Shown here piece by piece: positions 15,695 to 31,177 of a stretch of DNA of 32,000 nt (positions are counted from its first letter, which is position 1; every line of letters begins with the position of its first letter). This stretch comes from Telmatocola sphagniphila (GTDB lineage: Bacteria > Planctomycetota > Planctomycetia > Gemmatales > Gemmataceae). Below the pieces are notes generated by a model. That model did not search any database, was not told the DNA's origin, and saw only the letters and a program-made list of their open reading frames with translations. A program made the translations under genes and the position numbers. The stretch is from the NCBI RefSeq assembly GCF_018398935.1, contig NZ_CP074694.1, positions 1,980,001 to 2,012,000 on the forward strand, read 5' to 3'.

Positions 15695-16340
15695 GTCAGG
15701 ATTATGGGTTATCCCCTTTCCCGACCGATCCGACGAACCATCTTCGACGGATGAACTTGAGATCTCCCGGTTCCCGCGCAAAGAGTTTTCCCACATGCTC
15801 AGGGCCTCCGACTGCGTAGAGTTCCAGGAAGACTCGCCTATGATGCCCTCCTCGATGTGGCCTTCCGCTTCGGATAACAGCGTCGGCACCCCAGATGACG
15901 TGATTTCGCAGCTCGATACCTGGCCTGTGTGTGCCCCTGTCAACGCTTCACCGACAGCCTCGCGACTGGCGGCGTATGACTCGGGGTCGAGATGACTGGC
16001 TAAGTCTTCCTCGCGTGACTCTTTCATTCACTACTCCTTGCCGGTTTCGCCGGCGCACTAACCGTGCTGTGAAATGCGTCCTTGCGTACTTTGCTAGTCT
16101 GGAGAGTTTCTTTAACGGAGACTTTCTGTCCCGAACCGAATTCTGGTCGCATTTGTAGCCGAATTAAAGCTGTAGGGATTTTGGCATTTTGAAGGGTGTT
16201 TTGCCGAATACCGGGGAATATTGGAGCGGTCTGATGACCGAGACCGGGGTGTTGCGATGGGCCGGCGTAGTCCGGCACGAGGCGCTGCCGTTCGCCGCGA
16301 GCAGCAGAGGTTCGTAGAGTAACGGGCTTCCTGCGACTGA

Positions 16341-16876: not shown

Positions 16877-18173
16877 CAGGGCCAGCGCACTTTTGGGTAA
16901 TCTTCGCAATTTAGGTTATCTTGCGCTGTTGTCGTTTTGAGTGTAGGATTCTCCTTCAAGTCGCAATTAGTGAGCGACCTTGCAGGAGGCTTCGACGATG
17001 GCGAAAACGAAGGCGACCACAATCGATGAAATTCTCAGTCACTTCAGCTTTTTGGAAGATCCTCGAGAAGAGATTAATCGGAAGCATCCGTTTCGCAGCG
17101 TTCTCGTTATCGCTCTAATGGCCGTGCTGGCCGGAGCAGCGGGTCCGACGGGCATCACCCGCTGGGCCGAGCTTAAAAAGGACCTGCTGTCGCGGGTGTT
17201 GGATTTGCCCAATGGCGTGCCGTCGAAGGATGTGTTCCGACGCGTCTTGATGGCCCTGAATCCGCAGGCCTTTCAACTATGTTTCGAAGCCTGGGTGAAC
17301 TCGTTGCGGGAAAAAGCGGGCGAGCGGATGAAGATCGATCAGCCGATCCTGGCGGTAGACGGTAAGACTCTTCGCCGTAGTCACGACGAGAAAAAAGGGC
17401 TGGGGGCCTTGCATCTGGTAAGTGTCTGGTGCGGCGAACTCGGTCTATCGTTGGGGCAGGTGGCTTGCGAGGAGAAATCGAACGAAATTACGGCGATTCC
17501 GGAGCTTTTAGGGTTGGTGAACGTAGAAGGCGCGATTGTGACGATCGATGCGATGGGCACGCAGAAAGCGATAGCGGAATTAATCGTCGAGAAGAAAGGA
17601 GACTACGTTTTGGCGTTGAAGGGGAATCAGGAAAAATTGCATCGAGCGGTGATCGACTACATCGACCAGCAGAGCGTCAACGGCTTCGAGGGGATCGAAA
17701 CGCGGCAGTTCCTTAGCGAGGAACGCGGGCACGGTCGCGAGGAGGGCCGCGCTTACATTCAGATGCGTGCTCCCAAGGAGTTGCCCGGCTTCGAATTGTG
17801 GAAGGGTTTAAAGACGTTGGGCGTGGTGGTGTCGCAGTCGGTTCGCAAGGGGCAGGAAGTGATTTCGAAGCGATATTTCATCAGCAGTTTGGATTTGGGA
17901 GTGCGGAATTTTGCCCGGGCCGTGCGCGGACATTGGAGCGTGGAGAACGGCTGCCATTGGATACTGGATGTGCAATATCGGGAAGATGAATCGCGGATCC
18001 GGGAAGCGAATTTGCGGGAGAATTTCGCCTGGCTGAACCGCTTCAGCCTGTCGCTGTTGAAGCAGCATAAGAAAAAAGACAGCGTGGCCATGAAACGACG
18101 CTGCTGTGGGTGGGACGATGCGTTCCTACTGCAAGTCCTTACGGGAAAAGATACTTAGTACGCGCTGGCCCTG
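16877..18173 (+). mobile_element. ISAs1-family insertion sequence, 1,297 bp
   Basis: Perfect 12-bp terminal inverted repeats: CAGGGCCAGCGC at 16877-16888, and its complement GCGCTGGCCCTG at 18162-18173. CAGGG is the terminus I recall for ISAs1. Single transposase ORF. No flanking direct repeat is visible. Confidence 0.8.
16998..18158 (+). CDS. ISAs1-family transposase (H-repeat-associated type)
   Basis: ATG at 16998 is preceded by AGGAGG (track starts at TTG 16980). Motifs: FLEDPREEINRKHPFRSVLVIALMAVLAG, AVDGKTLRRSHD, TIDAMGTQKAIA, LALKGNQ, RGHWSVENGCHWILDVQYREDESRIR. Confidence 0.9.
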   Translation: MAKTKATTIDEILSHFSFLEDPREEINRKHPFRSVLVIALMAVLAGAAGPTGITRWAELKKDLLSRVLDLPNGVPSKDVFRRVLMALNPQAFQLCFEAWVNSLREKAGERMKIDQPILAVDGKTLRRSHDEKKGLGALHLVSVWCGELGLSLGQVACEEKSNEITAIPELLGLVNVEGAIVTIDAMGTQKAIAELIVEKKGDYVLALKGNQEKLHRAVIDYIDQQSVNGFEGIETRQFLSEERGHGREEGRAYIQMRAPKELPGFELWKGLKTLGVVVSQSVRKGQEVISKRYFISSLDLGVRNFARAVRGHWSVENGCHWILDVQYREDESRIREANLRENFAWLNRFSLSLLKQHKKKDSVAMKRRCCGWDDAFLLQVLTGKDT

Positions 18174-18419
18174 AGGCTCAGAGTGGGTAACCAGTCCGGT
18201 ATACTGTCTCAATGTGTGGGCAAATTGGGTTTTAAGCCAGCGAGCCTCTTTATGGAAACGGCCGGGACTCCTTTTCCAAAACGGGCCCCCTTCCTTTACT
18301 GAAACCAGATCCCCATGGAGCATTGAAACTAATGCGGGCTGCCGCGGTAAACAATGCTGACCAATTTGTCTGCGCTCAGTAGTTAGCTTTCGCGCTTTTC
18401 TCCAAAGCTTGGAGATCAC
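18174..18419 (-). pseudogene. Very uncertain: 82 codons of a basic ORF whose GTG overlaps the giant-gene stop (GTGA) and which runs into the ISAs1 end
   Basis: Track ORF 18126..18419. Its last 16 codons lie inside the IS inverted repeat, so any original gene was cut at 18174. The sequence (MISKLWRKARKLTTERRQ...) has no recognisable features. Confidence 0.15.
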
Positions 18420-21400
18420 AGCCCGGCAATCGAATCGATCCAGCTGGCATAGACGTCGACTCGCGTGTTGTACTCGTTATCGCCAAAGCTGGAATTCGTC
18501 TGAGTTCCCCCCGAAGTGATCCCGGCTATGTAGTAAACGCCATTCTTCAGGACGAACTCGGGACTGCCCGAATCGCCGACCACCGTATCGTCTTGCTGGT
18601 TATTCTGATATGTCCAGGTTAACAGAGTGCTCGTCACATTTCCGATTGGAGTCGTCCCCTTGTGTTTAACGCCAAAGGCATCTCCATCACGGGCGCCGAA
18701 ACCGACCAGCGTCAGCAACTGGCCCGCCGCGGGCACGGATTCGTTGATCGGGCTTGGAGCAACGTTCAATACGGATTTCGTCAACTCAAGAACAGCGATG
18801 TCATTTGCCGCATTCGTTCCGATCTCTGCCGGATCATATTCGGGATATTCGAATACTTTCGCGACGTTGTAAGTCGCTCCTCCAACTGTAAAAGTCAAAG
18901 TCGAAGGATCGCGGCCATCAATGACGTGGGCGGCCGTCAGTACGAATCGCGGTGCGATCAAAGTGCCGCCGCCGACGCCCTGGCCACTGAAGTTGACGAT
19001 GCCAACCGAGGCAAAGCCCGTGGTTGTCGCCGCATTTCCTTCTTCATTAAGCGGTTGCGAACTATCGGAAGTAGCGGAAGAATTGGTCGAAACGCTGGCC
19101 GAGTTACCGCTGGCGTCGGACCGCAGGTCGCTATCGGGACCGCCCGTGTATCGCGAATAATATTCAACGGAGCCCGCCATCGTCGCAACGACGGCCGCTT
19201 CCCCGGTCTTGGCCATCTGGGTGGCGTTCGATGTTAATCCGGATTGCTCGGGCTGCCGACGGAGCAATTGCTGGTAGAGCAGTAGCGTGCGATCTTGGAA
19301 AGCTTCCGAGCTATTGGCAATTCCCTCCACCACGCTAACGCGATTGTTATTTTTGGTGAATTGCTGTATCCAGCCTGCAGCTTCGGTTGTCGAAACCGTC
19401 CTATTCAGAATATCCTGGTATAGCACCTCCACAAAACCGGTGGGACTGGAATTCCCCTGTGTCCGGTAAAATTCGGGAGAGGAAGCGATGTCGACTCGAA
19501 TCTGTTCGATCGTAGCACCTTTCTGCATGTCACCCAGATACGAGGTCTGGCCGCTCACGTCCACGGACCGGTGGAGCAGGGATTCATAAAGTGCGTTGAT
19601 TTGATCGGCGCGGTATTCCTTCGAACTTTCGATTCCGGTGACCACAGTCGACGGAGCGACTCCCGCATCCAATTGGACCGCCCATCCATCCAGTTCAGCC
19701 AGCGATCCATTGCGGTTCAATAAATCGCGATAGAGTTGGGCCACGAACAATTCGTTGGAAGTCTTGGTGGTCGTCCCGCTTACCGTAATGGGAACCGAGC
19801 GCGTCAGAGCCGTCGGGTCGGGCTGATTCAGAATCGGATTAAAACCGGCAACCGTGAAGGTGAAATTCCCCGAGCCTGACGCGTTTAGCTTCGGTTCAAA
19901 GTTCGCGGACTGAATCTGGGCCAGCGTATAGGTCTGACCTGCCGCAGCCACCGTACCGTCCGAAAACATAACCTGACCGATTGCGCCGGGAACCTGGGTT
20001 ACGGTGTAAATCAAATACGGTTCCTTCGTGGAAGGAGTTGCAAAATTCAAGCTGCCCAGTCCCAGCGAGATTGGTGCGGCGTTGGTCAATAAGTTGAGAG
20101 GATTGATGCTGCCGGCCGTCTGAGTCGGCGGAATCAAAAGAGATTTGACATCGACCGTAACGTTTACAGTGTCCACGCTGGCCATGCCATCGTTGATCGA
20201 GAAAGTAATCGTTCGAGGGGTCGTAACTGGAGCGGGACTGACGTCTTGATACTGAACTGACTCCAGAACCGCCTCGTACTGGGCCTCTGTCGCCGCTCCA
20301 GAAAGCTGCAGAATCCCTTGCGTCGCATTGAACGTTCCGGTAATGCCTCCCGAAGGAGTGAAACTCAGCAGATCTTCGCCTGGAACATAATTACCGATCG
20401 AAACCGAAGCGTTATAGATGGTGTGTTGACCGGAACCATCCGGAAGAGCAGGATCGGGATCTTGGATTGAAAGCGTGGGGGCCACGGGCAACGGAGTACC
20501 GTTTTGCACGAATTGAAGTGTATTGGGGGGAACGCTCAGAGTCGGAGGAACATCGGCTGCATTCACGTCGACCACCACGTAGGCGGGCAGGCTGGTTACA
20601 CTGCCATCGCTGATGCTAAAGTCCACTTCGCGACTTCCTGCTATCGGATTTACTCGCGAATTGTAGTACTCGATTGACTGTAATGCGGTCTGGTAATCCG
20701 CAATAGACGCCGTCCCAGATAACGACAGCACGCCGGTTGCGGAATCAAAGTTCCCGGTAATTCCATTCTGGTTCGTAAAGATCAATTGATCTTCATCGGA
20801 GAAGTAAACGCCCGGGAAGGATATCGTTGCCCCCGAAAGTGTGGCGCCGCTATAGTTTATCGTCACCGTCGGATCGATCGCGAACGCTGTGCGTCCCGCG
20901 GTCACCTGCAAATTCACAAAGCCAGTGGTGACATACGGAATCACGGGAACCGTTAGAGTCAGGGTAGCATTGGCACTTGGAGTTAAGCCGTCGTTAACCG
21001 AGAAACTGATCGTCCGAGGCAGGCCGCTGCGTGCCTGGACCAGGTCGGTGAAAGTCACGCTGGCGAGTGCTATCTGATAGTCGTAAACGGAGGATTCCCC
21101 CGAAAGAGTGAGGATTCCGGTGTTCACGTCGAACGACTCCTGAATACCGCCGAAGAGCTGAGTTGCGTTCAGCGAATCTTCTCCCGGAGAGTAATTCCCC
21201 GAAATGGCGACATGGGCGCCGAGAAGCGTTGCAGCTTCCGAATCAGAAACCGTTAATCCCTTGTCCAGAACGACGGCGTTGGTTCGCGTTGAAGCGGTCA
21301 CGTTGGCCGTGCTCAGGGTCACTACCGGGGTCTGAGGGACCGAAGCGCTGCTGCTCACCTGCAACCGCTCGGTGGCATTCGCGAAATTCTTCGTCGAATT

Positions 21401-24400
21401 GTCATTAATGACGGAGACTGTCAATTCCCGAAACCCGGGCGTGACGGAACCGGAAAGATCGACATATTGGATGCTTTGCAAAGCCGCCGTGTAATCGGCC
21501 GCAGTGGCGTTGCCCGATAGAGTGAGAACGCCCTTCGCGGAATCGAACGCACCGCTGATTCCGTTCTGATTCGTGAACAGGAGTTCATCTTCCCCTGGGT
21601 TATAAGTGGCCGGATAGAACGAGATCACTGCCGCGACGATCTGGCCGCCCTGAGGGTTGCTAACCGTGATTCCCGGATCGAGGGCCGCAGGAGCATCGCC
21701 CTGCATGTAGAGAAGGCCTATTCCCAAAGGCGCGACAACCGGGGGCGAATTATTGGCTTTGGTGACGATCGGCTCGGTCAGGCTTGCCTGATTGCCAGAA
21801 TCGTCGCCGAGGGCGATCACAAGTGACTCGTTCGACGGCGTTCCGCTCGAGTTGTACTGCACGTCGTCGAGGGCAATCTGATACATATTGACCGGTTCTG
21901 TACCGCTCAGCGAAAGAACGCCGGTGGCCATATTGAAAGTGGCTGTGATACCCGTCTGCTGCTGGAATTTCAAAGGCAAGATCAGAAAGTCTTGGCCTTG
22001 AACGTAGTTGCTGATTGAGACGCTGGCGCCGCGAATCATTCCATCTTCGGCATCCTCCACTTGGAGTTGTTCCAACAAGGGAGCGGGACCGGAACCGAGG
22101 GTATATGAAACATTGGTTGCGGGCGAAGGAGTCTGGGTGTCGTTCGGATTGCCCGCGTTGGGATCGCCCAGTACTAGAGACAAAGGATAGATAGTAACGC
22201 CAAAGTTACTGGTTATCGGCGTGGTGAACTCGCCCTGATACCGCGACACGGCTACCTGGACGGAATCTTTGAAGAACGCTCCCGGCTGCGGTGTATAAAT
22301 CATGCCGTCGAGTTCCTGACTGACGTCGAAACCTGGACCGACCAGTGTTAGTTCATTGCTGCCCTGGCCGCTGAGAGTCACATCGCCCTGGAAATTCGAT
22401 ACCTGGAACGAACCGCTGTTGGCGTGAACGATCACCTGTACCTGAGCGTTGTTATCGAATTCCTCCATCGGATCGGTGACCACAATGGCGTTGCCCGACG
22501 CTGAGCTAAACTCGATCGGCGTATTGCTCGAAGTGTTCTGAATCGTCGGAACGGTGACCGTGGGATCGTAATCGGGTGGAATGATGCCCGATGTATAAGC
22601 GGTGTATACCGGCGGATTGGTACCGTCTTTGATGACGCCGTAAAAATAAATCGGCTTGGTCGGATCGTAAGGTTGCGAGGCGAATTCGGCGAAATCGTCC
22701 CATTCGAAGGATTGCTGGCCCGCCTTGAAGGGAAGGTCGGAAGCAATCAGCTGACCGTTGTAACCGCTCGAATTGGTGTCGGCGTAGATATCGATGGTGG
22801 TGTCGGTGGGATAGGAGGTAGTCCCGGTGTAGTCGATGTCGGCCGCCGGCGAACCGCTTTCGGGAGAAGCGCTTAAAGCTAGCGTCGGCGGAGAATCGCT
22901 CGCCGGGGAAGTATCCGGAGCGATTTGATAGGTGACAGGCGCCCCGCTTCCGTCGACAATAACCGTTCGCGTGCCGGGCAGATAGAAGCTGAACCCGGCG
23001 CTGTAAGTGCCGAAAATTCCCAGATCTGCCGAGACACTTCCCTGCACTTCCCCGGTGAGATCCACCTTCAGGGTAGCGCTGATCTTGACGATCACGGTAA
23101 CACTCGCAGTGAACTGCGCGTAGCTGTTGGAAGCCGATTGTTCGGGCCGAATCTGCAGATAGACCGTCAGCGTCCCGAGACTCTTTCCGCCGATCTTCGG
23201 AATATTGCTCGGAACGGTCACATTGAATCCGCCGTTGAAGGTGATGTCGCCCGACTTATCGAGATCGAATGCCAGGTTACCGGTCAACACGCTGCCGTAG
23301 GGCGGGATGGATATGATTGTCGAGCTGCCCGAAATATTAATTAAGTTGGGCCCGGTGAAGTAGAAGATCGCTTTTCCGGAGCCCTTTCCATACAAGCCGC
23401 CCAGATACTCGATATCGCCGTCGATCTCCATCATCTTGGCATTGATTTTGATGCTGCCCGTTACAGTGGCGGCGGCTTCGGTCTTGTTGTAAATCTTGAT
23501 GCTCGGGCCGAATGTTCCCGTCACGCTGCCATCAAATTCAAAATCGTCCGCCAGGTCGTTGAGCCCGCTGACCTGCCCGGAGATGCTGGTGATGTAACCG
23601 AAATCTCCGATCGGAATACCGGGAGTCCGTGAGAAGCTGATGCCGATTTCGCTGAGTTGCCCGTTACTGATTTCGAAAGAGCCACCCACGGTGATTCCGC
23701 CGGGCAGACTGACCATGCCGCTTCCCGAAATCGTCGTATTCCCCTGGCTATCCTGGGCATATTCGAATTCCAGATCCTGGATTCCGATGGGGCCCAGTTT
23801 CAGATCCGCAATCTTGATTTCCAGGCCAAGCAACTGTACGCTGCCGTCAGAGGTATTAATCAGCAAACCCTGACCCGGCAGTGAAACCGTACCGGTAAAT
23901 CCGCTGGCTAGAGAGACCTGAAGGCCACCGGTGATCTGCAGAGTACTCGCCGCGGAATCATACTGGAGCGTCAAGCCTTTCGACGTGGCCGTAACGCCGT
24001 CCAAGTCGATCGAGCCGTCCAGTTCGATATCCAGCGACTGCAGAGAACCGTCCACAATTTCGATGCCGGGATCGTCGGGTCCCGAACCCAGGCTGACGCC
24101 GAAATTATTGAGTACCGAATGGCCACCCTTGGGTGCTGTCGTCAAAATGACCGTACCGAAAATCCCGAAGGAGGAATTGGTACTGTCATATTCGACTCCG
24201 GCATCTTTAATGTGCACTTTCACGCCAAACAGCGAGAAATCGCTGGTGATACTCGCTTCCAGGCTCTGCAGCTGGCCGTTCTGAAGCACGATGCCGGGAG
24301 TCGTTCCTTCGCCCAGCTGCAATTCAACTTTGATCGTCTGTGAGGCGGCTTTGAACGTCGCATTGGCGGTGCCGTCGATCGTGATGGTGTCCGACGGCAC

Positions 24401-27280
24401 ATCGTATTCCAGGGTCAGGCTTTCGACGTTGATCGTCAGGTTGCCCACCGTGAACTTTCCGGTTAACTGCGCGCCGAGCGAGATAATTTGCGCCTGCCCG
24501 TTCGATACACTGAAAGTAAGCCCTGTCGTTCCGCCCCCCCCCAGATTCAGGCTGAAAGTGGCACTGCCGACCTGCAACGTCGTACTGCCCGTGACCGTGA
24601 CGCTCAGATCGGGATTAACGACCTGATTCAACCCGGATATATTGATGTCCCCCAGCGAAGGAAGCTGAACGTCCTCCAAAGGAGGTGGATTGAATCCGTT
24701 GAGCTGCAGATTGCCGTTGACCAGTGAGATGCTCGGGTTCCCAGCACCTCCCACGGTGATCGCCTGGCCGAAGTAATTGCCCGTGCCGGAAAAAGTGAAT
24801 TGATTCTGAACCGGGTCGTAAGTCACCGACAATGTGCCGGGATTGAAAACGACGTTATCGAGAGTTTGCGTGTTCGCGAAAGTATAAGTATTGCTGGCGA
24901 GTGTGACGACTCCGTTCCCAGTAGTCGGGTCTTGAGTGTAATTAAAATTTCCGGTCACCGGGCCGATGATCAGCCCGTCCGCATTGAGATTGAAACTGCC
25001 CTGAATCGTATAGGCCAGCGTGGATTGACTGAAATTGGAGCTCCAAACGAATCCGGAGGTCGATTGGATCTGCACTCCGGCCACATTGATAGACGGCGTG
25101 GAGAAACTGACCGAACTGATCACCCCGTTGACGATCTGAACGCCCTGGCCGACACCAAGAGTGACGGGAATAACCTGGCCATCGAGCGTAAGTGAGGCAG
25201 TGCCCAGAAGAGCAATCGTCGTCGCGTTGACGGCCTGACTGTACAGGCCGTACGGCGTGAACGTCAAGGGCTGCACGCTCAAGGGACCTGCCACCTGGAA
25301 GTTCGACAGACTGTTGCCGTTTTGATCGATGCCAAAGATGTAATTGGTTCCCGTTCCGGAAATCGTCAGATTTTGACCGGAGACTGGGATGGTAGCCTGG
25401 CCCTGGAATATCGTGGTGCCACTGGTCGGATTGAAGGACGCAGTTAGATTGGTGACATTATAAGTAAGCCCATTCAGGGAGACGCTCCCCGACGGACTGA
25501 AGAAATTATAAGTCGATGCGGTTACATTGCCATTGCTGTCCAGAACGAATCCGCTAGTGCCGTCGGCCCCAAGATCGGCGTTGCCTTGCGGTGTCGTGGC
25601 GCCGCCTACAAAAGAGAACGCCTGGCTGTTGGGATCGTAAACCGCGCTCATCGGCGACAAACCGTCCACGGCCGCGGGAGTGTAGGTTATGCCGCCAAGT
25701 GTGAGGCTGTTGAGCGAAAAACTGATGCTGCTGACCGTGCCGTTATTCGCAACGATCCCCGGAGGAGAGGAGCCAAACGTCACCTGCGCATGACCACCCT
25801 GCAAACTTGCCGTGGCACTACCCGAGAGATCGAAGGATGCGGAATTCTCATCGTAAATCGCGGTCAAGTTTCCAAAGAACGAAAGTCCGCCGAAATTGAC
25901 CAGCGTCACCTGGAAGGATATAGGATCCAAAGCTCCGTTGGTTATAGTCCAAGGGGATTGATAGGTGCCTGGAGGCGGTTCATATGTTGAGCCTGACGGA
26001 TAAGGCGGATACGCCTGATTTGCCCCCCCCTGCTCGTTTACCCCGAGTAGGATGATTTGTGTGACCCCGGGTGTCAGAACCGTCTGCGCCATCCCCTGAA
26101 TAGTGAACTGATTTTCCGTCGTGTTAAAACCCAAGAACAACCCCGGTGACTGGATCTGAGGGTAGGCTGTGAAGCTCTGATCCCCGATGGTCAGGCTATT
26201 GATCGTAAAAAGCGGGAGCGGGTTCGCGGGTTGATACTCCAAGTTTTGCAACGACTGAAGAATGCTCAGTTGCCCATTGTTGTACTGCAAACCTCCGGAG
26301 TACTGCGCTTGAGTTCCGAAGGTGACACTCGCAGAACCGACATCGAATTCTGCAGTCGCGGTTCCAGTGATATTGAAGGGATAAACCTCACCGGCATAGC
26401 CGCCGGAGCCGGAATAAGCGACGGTCGCGGTCAAGGCGCTCGATTGAAACGTCAAGCCGTCGAGTGTAAAGGTAAAGGGTCCGGAACCTCCGTTGGCATC
26501 CTGAAAAACTGGCAAGATGGAGAAAGTGTTGTTAGGGGCATAGACGCCAGGAATGAAAGTAAAAGCAGATGTACTGGGATAGAATGGATTCTCGTTAATG
26601 GCCAAAGAGGACGCCGGGATCTGTAGTCCCGCATTGGTGAAGCCGGACAAACCCAAAACCCCCCCCAACGATAAATACGCCGAATCGTAGGTATGGCCAG
26701 AAGAAGTGCTGTAATTGACGAAAAAGTCGCCCGGCACAAAAGTCTGTCCGCCGATCTGGAAAGGTACCGCATCGGCGTTCGGAATCTTGATGTCGGTATC
26801 GTTGACGAGATCGCTCATCGTAAACAAATAAGGATTTCCCGTTCCGGTATCGACAAGAGTTTGATTAGTGGTTTGTGAACCGTTCGAAAGAATGGCCGCC
26901 ATCACTTGAGTGGATATCGTAACGGTGCCAAAAAAACTGTTATTGCTATTGCTGAAGGATAGGTTGCTGAGTGTCAATCCATTAGGAAATGAAAAGAAGG
27001 GTACGAAATTCCCTTTCACTTCACCGCCGGGCACATAGAACCCGGCCGTGACTGCCGAAGTGGAAGTCACCGTTGTCGTTTGTGGTGTCGTGGCCGGGAA
27101 ATTTCCCTGGAATTGCAGATCTGCATAAGGTCCGTAACCCACATTGTAGAAAACATCTACATTTGCGGGGACCACACGATCTTCGAGCAATTGCACGCCC
27201 AGTTTGTGACGACGCACTGGCTTGACAGAGAGAGCCTGATCGACCCAGCAACGCTTCAACCAACTCAGGGGACTTGCCAT
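18416..27280 (-). CDS. Giant secreted/surface protein (2,954 aa) with N-terminal LEDR-type leader, beta-rich repeat modules, five Ig/cadherin-like repeats, DUF4214-like repeats and a C-terminal trypsin-fold serine protease
   Basis: One uninterrupted ORF. The N-terminus is ...HKLGVQLLEDRVVPA. The composition is dominated by T/S/G/N/V. DUF4214-like units include FVAQLYRDLLNR...DGW, LYESLLHR, FVEVLYQDILNR...AGW and LLLYQQLLRR. The protease triad is read directly: LTAAHV (His codon 18926-18928), NDIAVLEL (Asp 18800-18802), GDSGSP (Ser 18569-18571). Confidence 0.9.
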   Translation of the reverse strand: MASPLSWLKRCWVDQALSVKPVRRHKLGVQLLEDRVVPANVDVFYNVGYGPYADLQFQGNFPATTPQTTTVTSTSAVTAGFYVPGGEVKGNFVPFFSFPNGLTLSNLSFSNSNNSFFGTVTISTQVMAAILSNGSQTTNQTLVDTGTGNPYLFTMSDLVNDTDIKIPNADAVPFQIGGQTFVPGDFFVNYSTSSGHTYDSAYLSLGGVLGLSGFTNAGLQIPASSLAINENPFYPSTSAFTFIPGVYAPNNTFSILPVFQDANGGSGPFTFTLDGLTFQSSALTATVAYSGSGGYAGEVYPFNITGTATAEFDVGSASVTFGTQAQYSGGLQYNNGQLSILQSLQNLEYQPANPLPLFTINSLTIGDQSFTAYPQIQSPGLFLGFNTTENQFTIQGMAQTVLTPGVTQIILLGVNEQGGANQAYPPYPSGSTYEPPPGTYQSPWTITNGALDPISFQVTLVNFGGLSFFGNLTAIYDENSASFDLSGSATASLQGGHAQVTFGSSPPGIVANNGTVSSISFSLNSLTLGGITYTPAAVDGLSPMSAVYDPNSQAFSFVGGATTPQGNADLGADGTSGFVLDSNGNVTASTYNFFSPSGSVSLNGLTYNVTNLTASFNPTSGTTIFQGQATIPVSGQNLTISGTGTNYIFGIDQNGNSLSNFQVAGPLSVQPLTFTPYGLYSQAVNATTIALLGTASLTLDGQVIPVTLGVGQGVQIVNGVISSVSFSTPSINVAGVQIQSTSGFVWSSNFSQSTLAYTIQGSFNLNADGLIIGPVTGNFNYTQDPTTGNGVVTLASNTYTFANTQTLDNVVFNPGTLSVTYDPVQNQFTFSGTGNYFGQAITVGGAGNPSISLVNGNLQLNGFNPPPLEDVQLPSLGDINISGLNQVVNPDLSVTVTGSTTLQVGSATFSLNLGGGGTTGLTFSVSNGQAQIISLGAQLTGKFTVGNLTINVESLTLEYDVPSDTITIDGTANATFKAASQTIKVELQLGEGTTPGIVLQNGQLQSLEASITSDFSLFGVKVHIKDAGVEYDSTNSSFGIFGTVILTTAPKGGHSVLNNFGVSLGSGPDDPGIEIVDGSLQSLDIELDGSIDLDGVTATSKGLTLQYDSAASTLQITGGLQVSLASGFTGTVSLPGQGLLINTSDGSVQLLGLEIKIADLKLGPIGIQDLEFEYAQDSQGNTTISGSGMVSLPGGITVGGSFEISNGQLSEIGISFSRTPGIPIGDFGYITSISGQVSGLNDLADDFEFDGSVTGTFGPSIKIYNKTEAAATVTGSIKINAKMMEIDGDIEYLGGLYGKGSGKAIFYFTGPNLINISGSSTIISIPPYGSVLTGNLAFDLDKSGDITFNGGFNVTVPSNIPKIGGKSLGTLTVYLQIRPEQSASNSYAQFTASVTVIVKISATLKVDLTGEVQGSVSADLGIFGTYSAGFSFYLPGTRTVIVDGSGAPVTYQIAPDTSPASDSPPTLALSASPESGSPAADIDYTGTTSYPTDTTIDIYADTNSSGYNGQLIASDLPFKAGQQSFEWDDFAEFASQPYDPTKPIYFYGVIKDGTNPPVYTAYTSGIIPPDYDPTVTVPTIQNTSSNTPIEFSSASGNAIVVTDPMEEFDNNAQVQVIVHANSGSFQVSNFQGDVTLSGQGSNELTLVGPGFDVSQELDGMIYTPQPGAFFKDSVQVAVSRYQGEFTTPITSNFGVTIYPLSLVLGDPNAGNPNDTQTPSPATNVSYTLGSGPAPLLEQLQVEDAEDGMIRGASVSISNYVQGQDFLILPLKFQQQTGITATFNMATGVLSLSGTEPVNMYQIALDDVQYNSSGTPSNESLVIALGDDSGNQASLTEPIVTKANNSPPVVAPLGIGLLYMQGDAPAALDPGITVSNPQGGQIVAAVISFYPATYNPGEDELLFTNQNGISGAFDSAKGVLTLSGNATAADYTAALQSIQYVDLSGSVTPGFRELTVSVINDNSTKNFANATERLQVSSSASVPQTPVVTLSTANVTASTRTNAVVLDKGLTVSDSEAATLLGAHVAISGNYSPGEDSLNATQLFGGIQESFDVNTGILTLSGESSVYDYQIALASVTFTDLVQARSGLPRTISFSVNDGLTPSANATLTLTVPVIPYVTTGFVNLQVTAGRTAFAIDPTVTINYSGATLSGATISFPGVYFSDEDQLIFTNQNGITGNFDSATGVLSLSGTASIADYQTALQSIEYYNSRVNPIAGSREVDFSISDGSVTSLPAYVVVDVNAADVPPTLSVPPNTLQFVQNGTPLPVAPTLSIQDPDPALPDGSGQHTIYNASVSIGNYVPGEDLLSFTPSGGITGTFNATQGILQLSGAATEAQYEAVLESVQYQDVSPAPVTTPRTITFSINDGMASVDTVNVTVDVKSLLIPPTQTAGSINPLNLLTNAAPISLGLGSLNFATPSTKEPYLIYTVTQVPGAIGQVMFSDGTVAAAGQTYTLAQIQSANFEPKLNASGSGNFTFTVAGFNPILNQPDPTALTRSVPITVSGTTTKTSNELFVAQLYRDLLNRNGSLAELDGWAVQLDAGVAPSTVVTGIESSKEYRADQINALYESLLHRSVDVSGQTSYLGDMQKGATIEQIRVDIASSPEFYRTQGNSSPTGFVEVLYQDILNRTVSTTEAAGWIQQFTKNNNRVSVVEGIANSSEAFQDRTLLLYQQLLRRQPEQSGLTSNATQMAKTGEAAVVATMAGSVEYYSRYTGGPDSDLRSDASGNSASVSTNSSATSDSSQPLNEEGNAATTTGFASVGIVNFSGQGVGGGTLIAPRFVLTAAHVIDGRDPSTLTFTVGGATYNVAKVFEYPEYDPAEIGTNAANDIAVLELTKSVLNVAPSPINESVPAAGQLLTLVGFGARDGDAFGVKHKGTTPIGNVTSTLLTWTYQNNQQDDTVVGDSGSPEFVLKNGVYYIAGITSGGTQTNSSFGDNEYNTRVDVYASWIDSIAGL

Positions 27281-27405: not shown

Positions 27406-29961
27406 TTAAGGCATAGTTTTTTTTCGCAGTTCCAGTTCCCTGCGCCACTTCGCGGCTTCATTTGTCCGGCCACAGTCTTCACACAAATTGACCAGTTGGC
27501 GGACAATAGAGGCAGCCAGATCATTGAGATCCAGTTTCCCAGTGCTACCCAGAATTATCAAACCGTCGTAAAATCGCTCGAGAACACCGATGGCACGATC
27601 TCTGTGACCCGAAGCGATATTGCACTCCACAAGGAAGCCGACGCACCAGCGAACTTCCGCCGATTCGAAGGAAAATTTTGTCCTATAAGCCGTGTAGAGT
27701 TTTTCTCCCACTTCGACTGCTTTGTCGAGTTGTTTCGTGCGCTGATATGTTTCCATCAGGCGTCGCATTCCTCTGAGTCTTAGTGGATGCGAAACGCCCA
27801 ATTGGTCCGTTTCCAGAGGCAGCAGTTCCTCTCTCAGGGCAACCGCCCGCTCGAGTCGGCCGGCGTCCTCGTAAGCCGAAGCCAAATTATCCTTGAAGAA
27901 TAAGACATTGGGGTGCTTCGGAAACTGTTCTTGCGTACTTCTCGCCGTCTCCTCCAGAATGGGCATCGCTAGATCCATCTGTCGGGCCGCCTGATAAACC
28001 AACCCGAGATTGTGACGTTGCCCGATGGTGGTCAAGTCGAACTCGCCCAGATGCTCTTTCATCAGCAGTTGAGTTTCGATGTGAAGAGCTATCGCCTCTT
28101 TGTGCTGACCTCTGAGGGAGTAGATTCCCGCAAGATTGTTCATGCTCCAGAGCGTATCTCGATGGTGGGGCCCGAGGTGTTCCCGCATCCTCTGAAGTAC
28201 GTCTTCGTATAGCTCCTGGGCCTGATTCCAGGAACCGGATTCTTGATACGCTTCTCCCAAAGTTTTCGTAGCAAAGAGGGCTTTCTCGCTCTCCGCACCC
28301 AGCACATCCGTATACAGCGAGCACGCTCGTTTCAGCTGAGGAATAGCCAAAGCAGGCTCTCCTAATCGGCGATAACTCATTCCGATCACCGTTCGAACGG
28401 AAGCCTCGATGAGCGGTTGATCCTTGAACGCAACGCCAATTTCGGGCACCGCGGAATCGATTGCTCTGCGAAGCGTCACCTCGTTTCCCAGCCCGTTGTC
28501 GGCGACCGGTCGCCCGGCTGCTAAAACATTGTTTTCAAGAAAATGCAGCACGGCCGAGACTTCGCGACCTTTGGCTTCCGCCCTTTCCCGCTGCCCGGCC
28601 TCGGCCTTAGCCATCTCCCGTGCCCTCTCATTCGCTCGAGAAGCGCGAAAAGCCAGTATTGTGCTTACGGTGATACCAGCGATCAGCAGCAGGCAGATCG
28701 CCGCTACGGCGGACAAAAGCGCTTTGTGTCGACGGGCCATTTTCCGAAAGCGATAAGCCCGGCTCGGAGGACAGGCTTCGACAGGCTCATCGTTGAGATA
28801 TCGCTCCAGATCGCGTGCCAAGCAATTGGCGGAGGCATAGCGTCGCGTCCGATCTTTCTCGAGAGCTTTCATCACGATCGAGTCGAGTTCTCCATGAAGC
28901 TCCCGACTCCATTTCGCGGCGGCGACCAGTCGATAGTCCAGCTTCGCCGGAGAACTCTCCCCGGGCTCCATTAAACGGAGGCTCGGACGCGGCGGATCTT
29001 CCTCGCGAATGAGACGGAGATTATCAAGCAGAGTGGTTTTTTTGATTCGCTGTCTCGTCAGCGGGGTTGTACCGGTCAACAATTCGTAGATGAGTACGCC
29101 CAGAGAATAAATGTCGGCCCGAGAATCGATATCCAGGGAGTCGAGATTCGCCTGCTCCGGGCTCATGTATTCTAGTGTGCCGATCACTGTTCCCAGACCG
29201 GTCACGAGCGTACTTTCCGTCAGATCCTGACCGACGGCTTTGGCCACCCCGAAATCGATAACCTTTGGGACGGGTTTTCCTTCCTGCTCAGTGACGAGGA
29301 CATTGGTCGGCTTCAGATCGCGGTGAATTATTCCTTTCTGGTGGGCATGCTGCACGGCCTCGCAGACGGGTATCAGCAAAGCCAGTCGCTCGCGAGGTGG
29401 AAGATTATGTTCATCGCAGTATTGCGTGATCGATTTGCCCAGGACCAGTTCCATCACGAGGAAAGGTCTCCCCGAAGAAGTCACGCCACCGTCAAGGACT
29501 TTGGCGATATTCGGGTGATCCATAAGCGCCAGGGCTTGGCGTTCCGCCTCGAAGCGAGCGAGCAGCCCTTTGGAATCCAGCCCCGGCTTGATTAATTTAA
29601 CGGCAACCTTCCGCTTTATGGGCTCCAACTGGAGTGCAGCCCATACCGAGCCCATTCCGCCGCCGCCGATTTCATCGACGAGTCTGTAGCGGCCCGCAAC
29701 AACAGTTCCGGATTCGATTCCTGGATCGGTAAATTGAGAAGCGGAGTGTTGATGGAGAATTTTGGGCACAAACGTGGGAGCAGCCGGTTCCTCGAGAAAG
29801 TCGCCGGCCAACTCGCTTGCTTCAAGTAACGATTCCACCTGCTTCCGGAGCTGAATATTCTCCGCGCACTCCGCATCGAGAAATCGTCCACGCATCTGGG
29901 CGTTGTCGACAAGGAGAGCCTTGAGGAACAATTCGTTAGCTCGGGGGTTCCAGATCTGCAT
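27406..29961 (-). CDS. Membrane Ser/Thr protein kinase with C-terminal TPR region (intact paralogue)
   Basis: Preferred start is ATG 29961 (MQIWNPRANELFLKAL...); the track uses TTG 29988. Motifs: GGGGMGSVW, HRDLKPTNVL, DFGVAKA, SPEQ. TM helix LLSAVAAICLLLIAGITVSTILAF. Several clear TPR units follow (e.g. WNQAQELYEDVL, NNLAGIYSLRGQHKEAIAL). End coordinate taken from the track. Confidence 0.9.
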   Translation of the reverse strand: MQIWNPRANELFLKALLVDNAQMRGRFLDAECAENIQLRKQVESLLEASELAGDFLEEPAAPTFVPKILHQHSASQFTDPGIESGTVVAGRYRLVDEIGGGGMGSVWAALQLEPIKRKVAVKLIKPGLDSKGLLARFEAERQALALMDHPNIAKVLDGGVTSSGRPFLVMELVLGKSITQYCDEHNLPPRERLALLIPVCEAVQHAHQKGIIHRDLKPTNVLVTEQEGKPVPKVIDFGVAKAVGQDLTESTLVTGLGTVIGTLEYMSPEQANLDSLDIDSRADIYSLGVLIYELLTGTTPLTRQRIKKTTLLDNLRLIREEDPPRPSLRLMEPGESSPAKLDYRLVAAAKWSRELHGELDSIVMKALEKDRTRRYASANCLARDLERYLNDEPVEACPPSRAYRFRKMARRHKALLSAVAAICLLLIAGITVSTILAFRASRANERAREMAKAEAGQRERAEAKGREVSAVLHFLENNVLAAGRPVADNGLGNEVTLRRAIDSAVPEIGVAFKDQPLIEASVRTVIGMSYRRLGEPALAIPQLKRACSLYTDVLGAESEKALFATKTLGEAYQESGSWNQAQELYEDVLQRMREHLGPHHRDTLWSMNNLAGIYSLRGQHKEAIALHIETQLLMKEHLGEFDLTTIGQRHNLGLVYQAARQMDLAMPILEETARSTQEQFPKHPNVLFFKDNLASAYEDAGRLERAVALREELLPLETDQLGVSHPLRLRGMRRLMETYQRTKQLDKAVEVGEKLYTAYRTKFSFESAEVRWCVGFLVECNIASGHRDRAIGVLERFYDGLIILGSTGKLDLNDLAASIVRQLVNLCEDCGRTNEAAKWRRELELRKKTMP

Positions 29962-30093
29962 TCCAAGCCCAAACACAGGGTGCGGCAAACAATAGCTGCT
30001 GTGCGTTGGAAAAGTCGCACGAAAGTAATGCGAATTTTAGAGGATTTTTGCAGACAAAAATTTGATTTATTTCGAAAGAAATGTGCCGTCGCC

Positions 30094-30654
30094 TTAATCG
30101 CTATTAATTCGTCGGTATAACCACGCACGGCCAACCGCCCATAATCGGTCGGCCACGCCGCGCGTGATGCCCAGAGCATCTGCTGCTTCCTGATGCGTCA
30201 ATCCGGCAAAGTAACGCAGCTTGATCAACTGGGCGGTTTGTGCGTCGCACTCAGACAGTTCAGTCAAAGCTTCGTCAATTGCCAGCAACTCGACGGAGCG
30301 TTCGGATTCATCCGCGACGGCAAGCAGGTCAAAGTTCCGTCGCTGTCGATCTCCCCCTCTTTTGAGGGTGGCTTTACGGCGTGCGGATTCTACCAATATT
30401 CGACGCATCGCTTCCGCCGCAGCTGCGAAAAAATGACCGCGATTACTCCAGTGGGAACTATCTGAAGTATCCACAAGGCGAATGTAGGCTTCGTGGACGA
30501 GAGCCGTGGGATTGAGAGAATGCCCGCAAGCTTCACTCGCCATGCGGGAGGCCGCCAGTTTGCGCAGCTCTTCGTAGACCTGAGGCAATAACTCGACTGC
30601 GGCCCGTTGATCGCCTTTAGCGGCTGCATCCAGAAGTATCGAAACGCTGCTCAT
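30094..30654 (-). CDS. ECF-type RNA polymerase sigma factor (TIGR02999-like, kinase-associated type)
   Basis: 186 aa: LLPQVYEELRKLAASRM...LNPTALVHEAYIRL...LIKLRYFAGLTHQEAADALGITRGVADRLW. It is the first gene of a same-strand pair with the kinase 133 bp downstream. Confidence 0.9.
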   Translation of the reverse strand: MSSVSILLDAAAKGDQRAAVELLPQVYEELRKLAASRMASEACGHSLNPTALVHEAYIRLVDTSDSSHWSNRGHFFAAAAEAMRRILVESARRKATLKRGGDRQRRNFDLLAVADESERSVELLAIDEALTELSECDAQTAQLIKLRYFAGLTHQEAADALGITRGVADRLWAVGRAWLYRRINSD

Positions 30655-30847: not shown

Positions 30848-30974
30848 ATAATTTGAATGGCTCATCCGTTTTTAGTTGTAAAGTTGAGTGAAAATGCTCT
30901 AGATTTGGTTGACGAAGCCGCGAATCTCTGCAATGGTCGGCCCTATTTTTTTCGAGGCCCAATTCACGTCCAGA

Positions 30975-31148: not shown

Positions 31149-31177
31149 CTCAGTCTCGCGGGCCTGACTGATCGCGT

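What the first reader, a model, noticed from the sequence alone, without database searches (positions are those of the whole stretch)
18416..27280. 2,954-aa exoprotein with an unusual domain order: LEDR-type leader, unassigned beta modules, Ig-like repeats, DUF4214-like repeats, terminal trypsin-fold protease
One intact 8.9-kb ORF occupies more than a quarter of the window. About 1,500 aa of its N-terminal half show no motif I can assign. The catalytic His, Asp and Ser of an S1-type protease sit in the last about 200 aa, immediately after three to four DUF4214-like units. I do not recognise a protease placed as the extreme C-terminal module of a giant repeat protein, behind DUF4214, as a described architecture. 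It is formally similar to polymorphic-toxin layouts (long repetitive stalk plus C-terminal enzymatic head), though it could equally be a tethered surface protease.
Basis: partly seen in the sequence, partly recalled or inferred. Interest (0 to 1): 0.7.

Follow-up and report, generated by a model that had tools for sequence, protein, structure and literature searches.

The report
Giant planctomycete surface protein carrying a protease
This 2,954-residue protein of the peat-bog planctomycete Telmatocola sphagniphila is real and intact, and belongs to a recurrent but uncharacterised family of giant, probably surface or secreted proteins: a new beta-repeat stalk, cadherin-like spacers and a trypsin-type protease near the far end, encoded next to a sigma-factor/kinase pair; the toxin-like reading is not supported.

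Summary
The ORF (18416-27280, minus strand, 2,954 aa) is confirmed and is identical to a T. sphagniphila protein named only 'DUF4214 domain-containing protein'. Pfam assigns only four DUF4214 units and a C-terminal S1 protease. Its His2785, Asp2827 and Ser2904 align with trypsin H57, D102 and S195.

The 'unassigned' N-terminal half is a real family. An exhaustive HMMER search found 306 relatives. It has at least 10 copies of a ~70-aa repeat plus a conserved ~250-aa cap. AF2 (pLDDT 86) models this as a long antiparallel beta-meander with no global PDB match. The middle region is tandem Ig/cadherin-like beta-sandwiches.

The architecture is not unique. Fourteen representative clusters show the same collinear order, and in 11 of them more domains follow the protease. 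A full-length orthologue is more conserved in the head half (58%) than in the stalk half (44%). No immunity-like gene follows, and protease-less relatives end in binding domains, not toxins. The polymorphic-toxin reading is therefore not supported.

A Ser/Thr kinase and/or an ECF sigma factor lies beside the giant gene in the window and in all seven other loci where upstream sequence was available.

Best reading: a sigma/kinase-regulated surface or secreted stalk carrying a tethered protease. Export and activity are inferred, not shown.

The parts
27161..27280 (-). N-terminal leader (aa 1-40): a basic stretch followed by LLEDRVVP, with no hydrophobic h-region.
   Evidence: Read from the sequence. 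The same pattern of a basic stretch followed by LExR occurs in 60 of 132 Met-starting relatives. Variants of it occur in unrelated small planctomycete-type S1 proteases.
26474..27160 (-). aa 41-269: a T/S/G/F-rich, beta-prone region with no detectable repeat or family match.
   Evidence: No Pfam hit in tiles at E<=5. Among the 150 listed relatives only P0129, the N-terminal fragment of the L009 orthologue, matches this segment.
23699..26473 (-). Array of at least 10 copies of a ~70-75-aa beta-repeat (aa 270-1194). Each unit is one short strand plus four long strands. The best-conserved copies are at aa 912-1127.
   Evidence: An iterated repeat profile finds 10 copies in the query and about 1,130 in 151 family proteins. 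AF2 models aa 891-1440 at pLDDT 86.3 as an all-beta up-down meander. The strands are amphipathic. There is no global PDB or BFVD match and no PDB homologue at the sequence-profile level.
22961..23698 (-). Single-copy conserved all-beta 'cap' domain (aa 1195-1440), ending in the conserved motif F-x-F-x-L-P-G.
   Evidence: 61 of 150 relatives match aa 1181-1440 once. The region is alignable across the family (A2 and A3). It is part of the AF2 model.
22850..22960 (-). S/P/A/T-rich linker (aa 1441-1477).
   Evidence: Read from the sequence.
22181..22849 (-). Two beta-sandwich domains (aa 1478-1700): one Ig-like domain of ~95 aa and one divergent repeat-like domain of ~130 aa.
   Evidence: AF2 model pLDDT 86.5. 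Foldseek matches Ig-like and cadherin strings at E 1e-11 to 1e-9. 44 of 150 relatives match this segment.
20126..22120 (-). Five tandem ~130-aa cadherin/Ig-like beta-sandwich repeats (aa 1721-2385), each with the motif Y-x-P-G-E-D...G-x-L-x-L-S-G...Y-x-x-A-L.
   Evidence: A repeat HMM gives five hits at E 1e-48 to 1e-58. The repeats are 30-36% identical to repeats in giant DUF4347/cadherin/VCBS proteins of Burkholderia and other bacteria. Two of the five were modelled as beta-sandwiches.
19826..20080 (-). Single ~85-aa module (aa 2401-2485) that always precedes the DUF4214 block.
   Evidence: 21 of 150 relatives match it in the same position. It is also present in fragments P0031, P0032, P0034 and P0037. 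Its fold was not modelled.
19115..19825 (-). Four DUF4214 units (aa ~2486-2722).
   Evidence: Pfam PF13946 scores 96.2 bits against a cutoff of 23.2, in 4 stretches. The motif L-Y-x-x-x-L-x-R starts at aa 2515, 2564, 2620 and 2668.
18419..19030 (-). S1 (trypsin-fold) serine protease domain (aa 2751-2954). His2785 is encoded at nt 18926-18928, Asp2827 at 18800-18802 and Ser2904 at 18569-18571. An Asp sits at the position of trypsin D189. The domain has no cysteines and no IVGG-type activation N-terminus.
   Evidence: Pfam PF00089 E 6.6e-18. PDB relatives include TMPRSS2, elastase, factor Xa and VesB. The triad is aligned with bovine trypsin.
27406..29988 (-). Ser/Thr protein kinase with C-terminal TPR repeats, lying 125 bp upstream on the same strand.
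   Evidence: Pfam Pkinase E 4e-41 and TPR_12 E 4e-31. No terminator-like site on the coding strand in the gap before the giant gene. A kinase lies next to the giant gene or next to a neighbouring giant gene in six other loci.
30094..30654 (-). ECF sigma factor of the PF07638 type, upstream of the kinase on the same strand.
   Evidence: Pfam Sigma70_ECF E 1.4e-55. It is 51% identical to the sigma factor next to relative P0142. PF07638 sigma factors also flank the L002, L005 and L008 genes.

Best explanation
The gene encodes a member of an uncharacterised, mainly planctomycete family of giant extracytoplasmic proteins built as an N-terminal stalk or anchor with a C-terminal working end. A basic/LExR leader, not a classical signal peptide, marks it for export (inferred). 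About 1,400 residues of ~70-aa beta-meander repeats plus a conserved cap form an elongated, amphipathic all-beta body (fold modelled, role inferred). One Ig-like domain and six cadherin-like beta-sandwich domains act as a spacer. Four DUF4214 units and a catalytically complete, cysteine-free S1 serine protease form the distal functional cassette. The protease has an Asp at the S1-pocket position, which suggests but does not prove a preference for Lys/Arg. It lacks the Ile16-type activation N-terminus, so it is probably active while still tethered. Expression is probably governed by the adjacent ECF sigma factor and Ser/Thr kinase, a pairing in which the kinase activates the sigma factor by phosphorylation in studied cases. 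The most likely job is proteolysis at or near the cell surface: either foraging on extracellular protein or processing of surface or matrix proteins in a stalk-forming peat-bog bacterium.
For: Shown here:
- The ORF is intact and identical to a T. sphagniphila protein.
- The S1 domain scores above the Pfam threshold and has an aligned triad and a GDSGxP motif.
- There are four DUF4214 units.
- The N-terminal half belongs to a family with 306 HMMER hits, 109 of them below 1e-30. Repeats total about 1,130 copies in 151 proteins.
- The AF2 models are confident: pLDDT 86.3 for the beta-meander and 86.5 for the Ig/cadherin-like string.
- The full collinear architecture recurs in 14 representative clusters and in a full-length orthologue.
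- Relatives add typically extracellular domains after the protease, namely PA14, dockerin and DUF5648. Protease-less members end in Big_9/cadherin, FG-GAP, DUF11, LamG, He_PIG or beta-helix domains. This fits a display scaffold with exchangeable binding or enzyme ends.
- The same leader type occurs on small S1 proteases that carry Calx-beta, PPC or dockerin domains.
- A Ser/Thr kinase and/or an ECF sigma factor lies next to the giant gene in the window and in L002, L004, L005, L006, L007, L008 and L009. There is no terminator-like site between the kinase and the giant gene in the window.

Against: - Export is not shown. The leader has no hydrophobic core, and no secretion-system genes or sorting signal were found in the window.
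- I found no paper describing the LExR leader.
- The three-dimensional shape of the beta-repeat array (rod, groove or barrel-like) could not be inspected, because only secondary structure and confidence values are returned. Foldseek gave only local matches with TM 0.15-0.24.
- No shared promoter motif was found upstream of the giant genes, so sigma/kinase control rests on synteny alone.
- In L002 the sigma/kinase pair lies downstream of the relative and upstream of a second giant gene. In L008 only a sigma factor was seen.
- Protease activity, specificity and substrates are untested.
- Lys/Arg depletion of the stalk is family-wide and also occurs in protease-less members, so it gives no support for trypsin-like self-protection.
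Confidence: 0.55

Rival explanations
1. Polymorphic toxin or contact-dependent antagonism effector: a conserved stalk delivers a variable C-terminal toxic head (here a protease) into competitors, with an immunity gene downstream.
For: The layout is formally similar, with a long repetitive stalk and a C-terminal enzyme. Across the wider family the N-terminal module is combined with different C-terminal regions.
Against: In all 14 protease-bearing representatives the head is collinear with the same spacer modules. In the full-length orthologue the head half is more conserved (58%) than the stalk half (44%), and the L001 fragment gives 58% for the head against 61-64% for the adjacent repeats. The alternative C-termini are lectin, Ig, FG-GAP or DUF11 binding domains, not toxins. 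Downstream genes differ in every locus: an IS transposase here, and elsewhere Mn catalase, DUF3267, ferredoxin, GLUCM-like or DnaK-operon genes. No TPS, PAAR, LXG, Rhs or pre-toxin domain was found.
Confidence: 0.04
2. Inverse-autotransporter-like or outer-membrane-anchored protein: part of the N-terminal beta region, for example the single-copy cap at aa 1195-1440, inserts into the outer membrane as a barrel. It would export and anchor the C-terminal Ig-like string and protease as a surface passenger, as in intimin/invasin.
For: The topology of an N-terminal beta region, then an Ig-like string, then a distal functional domain parallels the Int/Inv family (PMC3008723, abstract). The best Foldseek hits of the beta model are large outer-membrane barrels: LptD, FimD/PapC ushers, porins and VDAC. 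The strands are 9-17 residues long and amphipathic, with mean hydropathy +1.8 on one face and -1.0 on the other. The cap ends in a conserved aromatic-rich F-x-F-x-L-P-G strand that resembles a beta-signal.
Against: TM-scores to barrels are only 0.10-0.24. Repeat number varies from about 2 to 14 between relatives, which a closed barrel would not tolerate. Nearly all loops are 2-5 residues on both sides, and aa 891-1440 contain no Trp. There is no Sec-type signal peptide. No Pfam match to autotransporter, intimin, usher or OMP families was found.
Confidence: 0.12
3. Lipid- or hydrophobic-ligand-binding beta-groove or belt, in the manner of LptA, AsmA or the repeating-beta-groove proteins, or of the ApoB100 beta-belt. 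The amphipathic meander would form a long open groove that carries or coats hydrophobic material, and the protease would be accessory.
For: The highest query-normalised TM matches are to the ApoB100 beta-belt, and the lowest E-values are to LptD. Repeat-rich relatives accumulate LptD_N whole-protein scores above the curated cut-off (E 1e-12 to 1e-5), but with no single matched stretch significant on its own, and P0160 also gives a sub-threshold ATG2 score. One face of nearly every strand is hydrophobic.
Against: The query itself has no LptD_N, AsmA or TamB hit, even at E<=5. The Pfam signals in relatives have no individually significant stretch and may reflect composition. There is no N-terminal membrane anchor. 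The C-terminal partners are extracellular binding domains. An amphipathic strand pattern is equally expected for an ordinary two-layer beta structure.
Confidence: 0.08
4. Adhesin or matrix fibre in which the protease serves only for self-processing, that is maturation or release of the fibre, rather than acting on external substrates.
For: The stalk and spacer resemble adhesin extenders. Protease-less paralogues carry binding domains at the same position. The organism forms dendriform, stalk-connected cell clusters (PMC3327967, title and abstract). In most relatives further binding-type domains follow the protease.
Against: The query has no domain after the protease that could be released. The whole protein contains few Lys/Arg residues (2.6% after the leader), which limits self-cleavage sites if the specificity is trypsin-like. 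The close S1 relatives are stand-alone secreted proteases with carbohydrate- or Ca-binding domains, which suggests external substrates.
Confidence: 0.18

Closest known systems
Small planctomycete-type secreted S1 proteases (570-730 aa; trypsin domain plus Calx-beta, PPC, dockerin or PKD), e.g. hits P0040 and P0044
   Same: The protease domain is 45-50% identical with the same catalytic motifs, and there is a similar basic/LExR-type leader.
   Different: In these proteins the protease is N-terminal, starts with an R|IVNG activation-type N-terminus and keeps the Cys42-Cys58 pair. In the giant protein it lies at the far C-terminus behind DUF4214, lacks IVNG and has no cysteines.
VesB of Vibrio cholerae and related surface-tethered trypsin-like S1 proteases (PDB 4lk4)
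   Same: An S1 fold and the concept of a trypsin-like protease held at the cell surface. The concept part rests on my own knowledge of VesB.
   Different: VesB is about 400 aa, with an Ig-fold domain and a GlyGly-CTERM anchor. The protein here has a 2,700-aa N-terminal stalk and no C-terminal sorting signal.
Giant repetitive adhesins with cadherin/Ig-like extenders (DUF4347/Cadherin_3/VCBS proteins of Burkholderia, Paraburkholderia and Pseudoduganella; RTX adhesins)
   Same: The five ~130-aa repeats are 30-36% identical to repeats in those proteins. They are tandem beta-sandwich spacers.
   Different: The match covers only 8-26% of the query. No RTX/HemolysinCabind repeats, no DUF4347 head and no T1SS genes were found. 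The N-terminal beta-meander module and the DUF4214-trypsin cassette are absent from those proteins.
Polymorphic toxins (CdiA, Rhs, MafB and similar)
   Same: A long stalk with an enzymatic domain at the C-terminal end.
   Different: The head is conserved with the stalk, there is no immunity-like neighbour, and there are no delivery-system domains.
Inverse autotransporters (intimin/invasin, type Ve)
   Same: The order is an N-terminal beta region, then an Ig-like string, then a distal functional domain (PMC3008723).
   Different: There is no signal peptide, LysM domain or 12-strand barrel family match. The beta region is about 1,400 aa of variable-number repeats.
ECF sigma factor / Ser-Thr kinase regulatory pairs (ECF43 and the planctomycete kinase-linked ECF groups)
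   Same: A PF07638 ECF sigma factor lies directly next to a Hanks-type kinase, and the pairing is conserved beside relatives of the giant gene. The literature describes such pairs (PMC7826278, PMC13147305).
   Different: Which ECF group this sigma factor belongs to was not determined. The target promoter was not found, and regulation of the giant gene is inferred from synteny only.

Membership tests
Peptidase family S1 (Pfam PF00089 Trypsin) | Profile match above the curated threshold | tested here: met
   65.8 bits against a cutoff of 20.6, covering aa 2751-2948 and profile positions 7-220 of 220. 126 PDB S1 chains match at E<=1e-3.
Peptidase family S1 (Pfam PF00089 Trypsin) | Catalytic His57, Asp102 and Ser195 in the correct alignment columns, with the GDSGxP oxyanion motif | tested here: met
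   H2785 (TAAH), D2827 (NDIA) and S2904 (GDSGSP) are invariant columns shared with bovine trypsin and four relatives.
Peptidase family S1 (Pfam PF00089 Trypsin) | Zymogen-type activation N-terminus (I/V-V-G/N-G) and the Cys42-Cys58 disulfide. These are typical of the chymotrypsin-like S1A branch but are not required for S1 membership. | tested here: not met
   The aligned positions read EEGNAATT in place of IVGG/IVNG, and G/V in place of the two cysteines. The small relatives P0040 and P0044 keep both features.
Peptidase family S1 (Pfam PF00089 Trypsin) | Peptidase activity and substrate specificity | not testable with these tools
   An Asp aligns with trypsin D189, but positions 216 and 226 could not be aligned reliably. 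Specificity is only suggested.
DUF4214 (PF13946) | Profile match above the curated threshold | tested here: met
   96.2 bits against a cutoff of 23.2, in four stretches, the best at aa 2598-2661.
Polymorphic toxin system | C-terminal head varies between close relatives while the stalk is conserved | tested here: not met
   All 14 protease-bearing representatives are collinear. In orthologue L009 the head half is 58% identical and the stalk half 44%. In L001 the head is 58% identical against 61-64% for the adjacent repeats.
Polymorphic toxin system | Small cognate immunity gene immediately downstream | tested here: not met
   Downstream in the window is a convergent IS transposase. Downstream genes in L001, L002, L004-L007 and L009 are unrelated to one another.
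Polymorphic toxin system | Recognised delivery or pre-toxin domains (TPS, PAAR, LXG, Rhs/YD, PT-domains) | tested here: not met
   No such Pfam or NCBIfam hit in the whole protein or in tiles at E<=5.
RTX/T1SS giant adhesin | C-terminal RTX nonapeptide repeats and neighbouring T1SS genes | tested here: not met
   No HemolysinCabind hit. No ABC, MFP or TolC genes among the window ORFs scanned.
Type V secretion (classical, two-partner or inverse autotransporter) | Autotransporter barrel, TPS domain or intimin-type barrel family match, plus a Sec signal peptide | tested here: not met
   No Pfam match. The leader lacks a hydrophobic core. Whether any part of the beta region forms a barrel could not be seen, because coordinates are not returned.
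LptA / AsmA / repeating-beta-groove lipid-transfer proteins | Family profile match and an open hydrophobic groove | tested here: inconclusive
   The query has no hit. Relatives show LptD_N whole-protein scores above the curated cut-off but with no individually significant stretch, and a sub-threshold ATG2 score in P0160. The strands are amphipathic. Groove geometry could not be inspected.
Kinase-linked ECF sigma regulatory unit | ECF sigma gene adjacent to a Ser/Thr kinase gene, with conserved synteny to the putative target | tested here: met
   The window has the order sigma, kinase, giant gene on one strand. Kinase and/or sigma genes lie beside the giant gene in L002, L004-L009.
Kinase-linked ECF sigma regulatory unit | Sigma-dependent promoter in front of the target, and phosphorylation-dependent activation | tested here: inconclusive
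   No bipartite motif is shared beyond shuffle expectation. Phosphorylation cannot be tested with these tools.
New 'beta-meander repeat plus cap' family (defined here) | Significant homology to aa ~890-1440 and multiple ~70-aa repeats | tested here: met
   306 HMMER hits. 145 of 150 match aa 891-1180 and 61 of 150 match the cap. There are 10 repeats in the query.

The most novel reading that the evidence does not exclude
The ~70-aa beta-meander repeat array plus cap is a previously undescribed fold and domain family. It would serve as the common stalk or anchor of a planctomycete-specific surface-display system, addressed by the non-classical basic/LExR leader and switched on by a dedicated ECF sigma/Ser-Thr kinase pair. 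Different family members would display different working ends (lectins, cadherin/FG-GAP binders, or here a tethered trypsin-type protease). That would give a first molecular handle on how planctomycetes export and deploy their many giant proteins.
Probability: 0.3. Interest if true: 0.65.

Novelty: new variant of a known kind. Interest (0 to 1): 0.45.

Why it matters
Planctomycetes are known for many giant genes whose products are only loosely assigned to surface, transport or extracellular roles (review PMC12673574). This locus turns one of them into a defined and testable object:

- a recurrent family with a new, confidently modelled beta-repeat module that Pfam and the PDB do not cover;
- a conserved functional cassette (DUF4214 plus S1 protease), which gives DUF4214 a concrete partner;
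- a conserved regulatory neighbourhood (ECF sigma plus Ser/Thr kinase), which suggests what controls it.

It also removes a tempting but unsupported reading (polymorphic toxin). If the display-scaffold model holds, it would bear on how these bacteria, which lack recognisable signal peptides on such proteins, export and use giant exoproteins for foraging or for building stalks and matrices.

Tried and rejected
- The self-BLASTP of the protein printed no off-diagonal match; the repeats emerged only with profile methods.
- The word-indexed homologue search with aa 891-1440 found only 2 proteins. The exhaustive HMMER search was needed to find the family.
- PDB sequence-profile searches with A2 and A4 found nothing.
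With a 5-sequence alignment it returned a single locus, in a Fuerstiella MAG, so the taxonomic breadth is poorly sampled.
- Idea tested and rejected: the stalk's lack of Lys/Arg (none in aa 201-800) protects it from its own trypsin-like head. The depletion is family-wide (median 5.9%, minimum 0.4%) and is also strong in protease-less members.
- A search for a shared bipartite (ECF-type) promoter upstream of the giant genes found at most 3 of 8 sequences sharing a motif, the same as in shuffled controls.
- Literature searches for the LEDR/LExR leader and for a DUF4214 function gave nothing relevant.
- The small conserved ~165-aa ORF found upstream of distant relatives has no homologue in the window and is not fused to the giant protein.
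Full report
**Observation**

The window holds one uninterrupted ORF on the minus strand, 18416-27280, starting with ATG and encoding 2,954 aa. It is 100% identical over its full length to an NCBI protein of Telmatocola sphagniphila. That protein comes from a 6.59-Mb contig and is named only 'DUF4214 domain-containing protein'. An ORF of this length cannot arise by chance.

Pfam recognises only DUF4214 (96 bits, four stretches) and Trypsin PF00089 (aa 2751-2948, E 6.6e-18). NCBIfam recognises nothing. Tiled scans at E<=5 add nothing for the leader, the N-terminal half, or the middle repeats.

**Protease**

The last 230 residues were aligned with bovine trypsin and four relatives. His2785 (TAAH), Asp2827 (NDIA) and Ser2904 (GDSGSP) fall in the H57, D102 and S195 columns. 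The PDB sequence search returns 126 S1 chains, including TMPRSS2, elastase, factor Xa and VesB. An Asp aligns with trypsin D189, which hints at Lys/Arg specificity.

The domain lacks the IVGG/IVNG activation N-terminus and both Cys42 and Cys58. Its small planctomycete-type relatives keep all of these. The whole protein has a single cysteine, at residue 11 in the leader. I infer that the enzyme does not depend on classical zymogen activation and can work while tethered. This is an inference.

**C-terminal cassette**

A search with aa 2478-2954 found fragments at 56-59% identity that carry the same DUF4214 plus trypsin arrangement (P0031, P0032). It also found many 570-730-aa proteases at 45-50% identity in which the protease is N-terminal and is followed by Calx-beta, PPC or dockerin.

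P0032 lies at the end of a frameshifted contig. tblastn shows that this contig encodes a collinear orthologue of aa 1907-2954.

**N-terminal half**

An exhaustive HMMER search with aa 231-1430 found 306 proteins, 109 of them below 1e-30. The conserved core is aa ~890-1420.

An iterated profile of a ~70-aa unit detects 10 copies in the query, between aa 270 and 1194. It detects about 1,130 copies in 151 family proteins.

AF2 with a 19-sequence alignment models aa 891-1440 at pLDDT 86.3 and pTM 0.60. The model is all-beta, with about 38 strands of up to 17 residues in an up-down meander. Each repeat is one short strand plus four long strands, and a single-copy cap of ~250 aa follows. The strands are amphipathic, with mean hydropathy +1.8 on one face and -1.0 on the other.

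Foldseek against the PDB gives only local meander matches: LptD, usher barrels and the ApoB100 belt, with TM 0.15-0.24. BFVD gives nothing global. A profile search of PDB sequences finds nothing.

This is therefore a real, widespread and uncurated module whose overall shape I could not inspect.

**Middle region**

AF2 on aa 1478-1972 (pLDDT 86.5) gives four tandem beta-sandwich domains. Their best PDB matches are PrgB Ig-like domains, antigen I/II C123 and cadherin ectodomains, at E 1e-11 to 1e-9.

A repeat HMM delimits five ~130-aa repeats at aa 1721-2385. These are the only part shared with giant DUF4347/cadherin/VCBS adhesins of Burkholderia and other bacteria, at 30-36% identity over 8-26% of the query. 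'Ig-like repeats' is therefore right at the level of fold.

**Is the architecture unusual?**

Query segments were mapped onto the 150 best relatives. The full order (beta-module, cap, Ig-like, five repeats, F module, DUF4214, trypsin) is present and collinear in 14 representative clusters of 1,727-4,936 aa, ten of which carry a basic/LExR leader.

The protease is terminal in only 3 of the 14. In the other 11, a further 214-1,156 residues follow. In the two of these whose loci list Pfam hits, the additional families are PA14 and dockerin, or DUF5648.

All the relatives that were looked up are named 'hypothetical protein' and come from metagenomes. One relative lies in a Fuerstiella MAG.

Contig L009 encodes a full-length collinear orthologue, split by a frameshift. 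It is 44% identical over aa 1-1208 and 58% identical over aa 1205-2953.

**Polymorphic-toxin test**

- The head is the better conserved half and always accompanies the same spacer modules.
- Protease-less family members end in Big_9/cadherin, FG-GAP, DUF11, LamG, He_PIG or beta-helix domains, not in toxins.
- Downstream genes are unrelated between loci. In the window the downstream gene is a convergent IS transposase.
- No delivery or pre-toxin domains were found.

I consider this reading refuted as far as sequence data can go.

**Gene neighbourhood**

Upstream on the same strand lie a PF07638 ECF sigma factor (30094-30654) and a Ser/Thr kinase with TPR repeats (27406-29988). The gaps between them are 105 and 125 bp. 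No terminator-like site lies on the coding strand before the giant gene.

The same kind of neighbour recurs in the relatives' loci:

| Locus | Relative | Neighbouring genes |
|---|---|---|
| L004 | P0142 | divergent sigma and kinase |
| L005 | P0150 | sigma and kinase upstream |
| L006 | P0143 | sigma-like gene and kinase |
| L007 | P0131 | sigma-like gene and kinase |
| L009 | orthologue | divergent kinase |
| L008 | Fuerstiella MAG | divergent sigma |
| L002 | P0172 | sigma and kinase directly downstream, preceding a second giant gene |

[quoted passage not shown] No shared promoter motif was detectable, so regulation is inferred from synteny alone.

**Mechanism proposed (confidence about 0.55)**

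The sigma/kinase pair senses a signal and turns on the giant gene. The product is exported by a route that recognises the basic/LExR leader. The beta-repeat array and cap form the proximal stalk or anchor, and the Ig/cadherin-like domains act as a spacer. The DUF4214-S1 cassette acts at the distal end on extracellular or surface proteins.

- Shown here: the sequence features, the homologies, the confident models, the collinearity and the synteny.
- Inferred: export, localisation, enzymatic activity, specificity and regulation.

Rivals retained are a self-processing adhesin or fibre (0.18), an outer-membrane-anchored, inverse-autotransporter-like topology (0.12), a lipid-binding groove or belt (0.08) and a polymorphic toxin (0.04).

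**Rejected side idea**

The stalk has no Lys or Arg at all in aa 201-800, and the protein has 2.6% Lys+Arg after the leader. I asked whether this protects the stalk from a trypsin-like head. The depletion is family-wide and equally strong in protease-less members, so it gives no support.

**Verdict**

The interpretation as a singular, toxin-like layout is not supported. The protein is a new variant of a known kind, the giant modular bacterial exoprotein or adhesin. It belongs to an uncharacterised planctomycete family whose N-terminal module is new to the curated libraries and to the PDB. Interest is moderate (0.45): nothing here overturns expectations, but the family, its fold and its sigma/kinase linkage are concrete and testable.

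Noticed in passing
window 810-6291 (+): A second ECF sigma factor (810-1376, PF07638, 52% identical to the one at 30094-30654) is followed by a kinase gene. The kinase is cut off after its kinase domain (1393-2430) by an IS66-family transposase (2434-3963). A TPR-only ORF (4117-6291) looks like the kinase's displaced C-terminal part. This appears to be a paralogous sigma/kinase pair disrupted by an insertion sequence.
   Followed up: partly
window 14146-16022 (-): A group II intron. Rfam group-II-D1D4-6 matches 15802-16022 (179 bits) and Intron_gpII domain V/VI matches 14146-14220. A 602-aa reverse-transcriptase ORF lies at 14219-16027.
   Followed up: partly
window 41-415, 10086-10895, 16980-18158, 30783-31795: The giant gene sits in a region crowded with mobile-element genes and fragments. 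These include a DDE_Tnp_1 transposase convergent with the giant gene's 3' end (16980-18158), an IS66 fragment (10086-10895), an ISL3 fragment (30783-31148) and DDE_Tnp_1 fragments (31178-31795 and 41-415).
   Followed up: partly
window 6000-9000: A low-GC stretch (0.40-0.44, against about 0.53-0.56 elsewhere) with only short ORFs. Its origin was not examined.
   Followed up: no
window 11454-12839 (-): A 461-aa ORF with a PrsW-family intramembrane protease domain (E 1.5e-14).
   Followed up: no
L002:7301-7819, L004:7429-7923, L005:7132-7761, L007:7127-7627, L008:2758-3264: A conserved ORF of ~165-210 aa with no Pfam family lies upstream of and close to the giant gene in five more distant relatives, separated from it in L008 by a PEP-CTERM ORF. 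Copies are 26-46% identical to each other. It is absent from the window and from the closer relatives in L006 and L009, and it is not fused to the giant protein. It may be an accessory factor or chaperone of the family.
   Followed up: partly
window 24881-26680 (-), aa 201-800 of the giant protein: 600 consecutive residues contain no Lys or Arg and only 24 Asp+Glu. Low Lys+Arg content is a trait of the whole family (median 5.9%, minimum 0.4%) and remains unexplained.
   Followed up: yes
proteins P0033, P0040, P0044; leaders of P0129-P0214: The N-terminal pattern of a basic stretch followed by L-E-x-(L)-E-x-R-x-x-(P/L/M)-(S/A), with no hydrophobic core, also occurs in variant forms on unrelated small secreted-type planctomycete proteases. 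No description of it was found in the searchable literature.
   Followed up: partly
L008:3296-4207 (+): In the Fuerstiella MAG a 303-aa ORF with a PEP-CTERM sorting motif (E 2e-8) lies between the small conserved ORF and the 4,946-aa giant gene.
   Followed up: no
L002:21997-26353 (+): A second very large gene (at least 1,884 aa, running off the locus) follows the sigma/kinase pair downstream of relative P0172. Whether it belongs to the same family was not checked.
   Followed up: no
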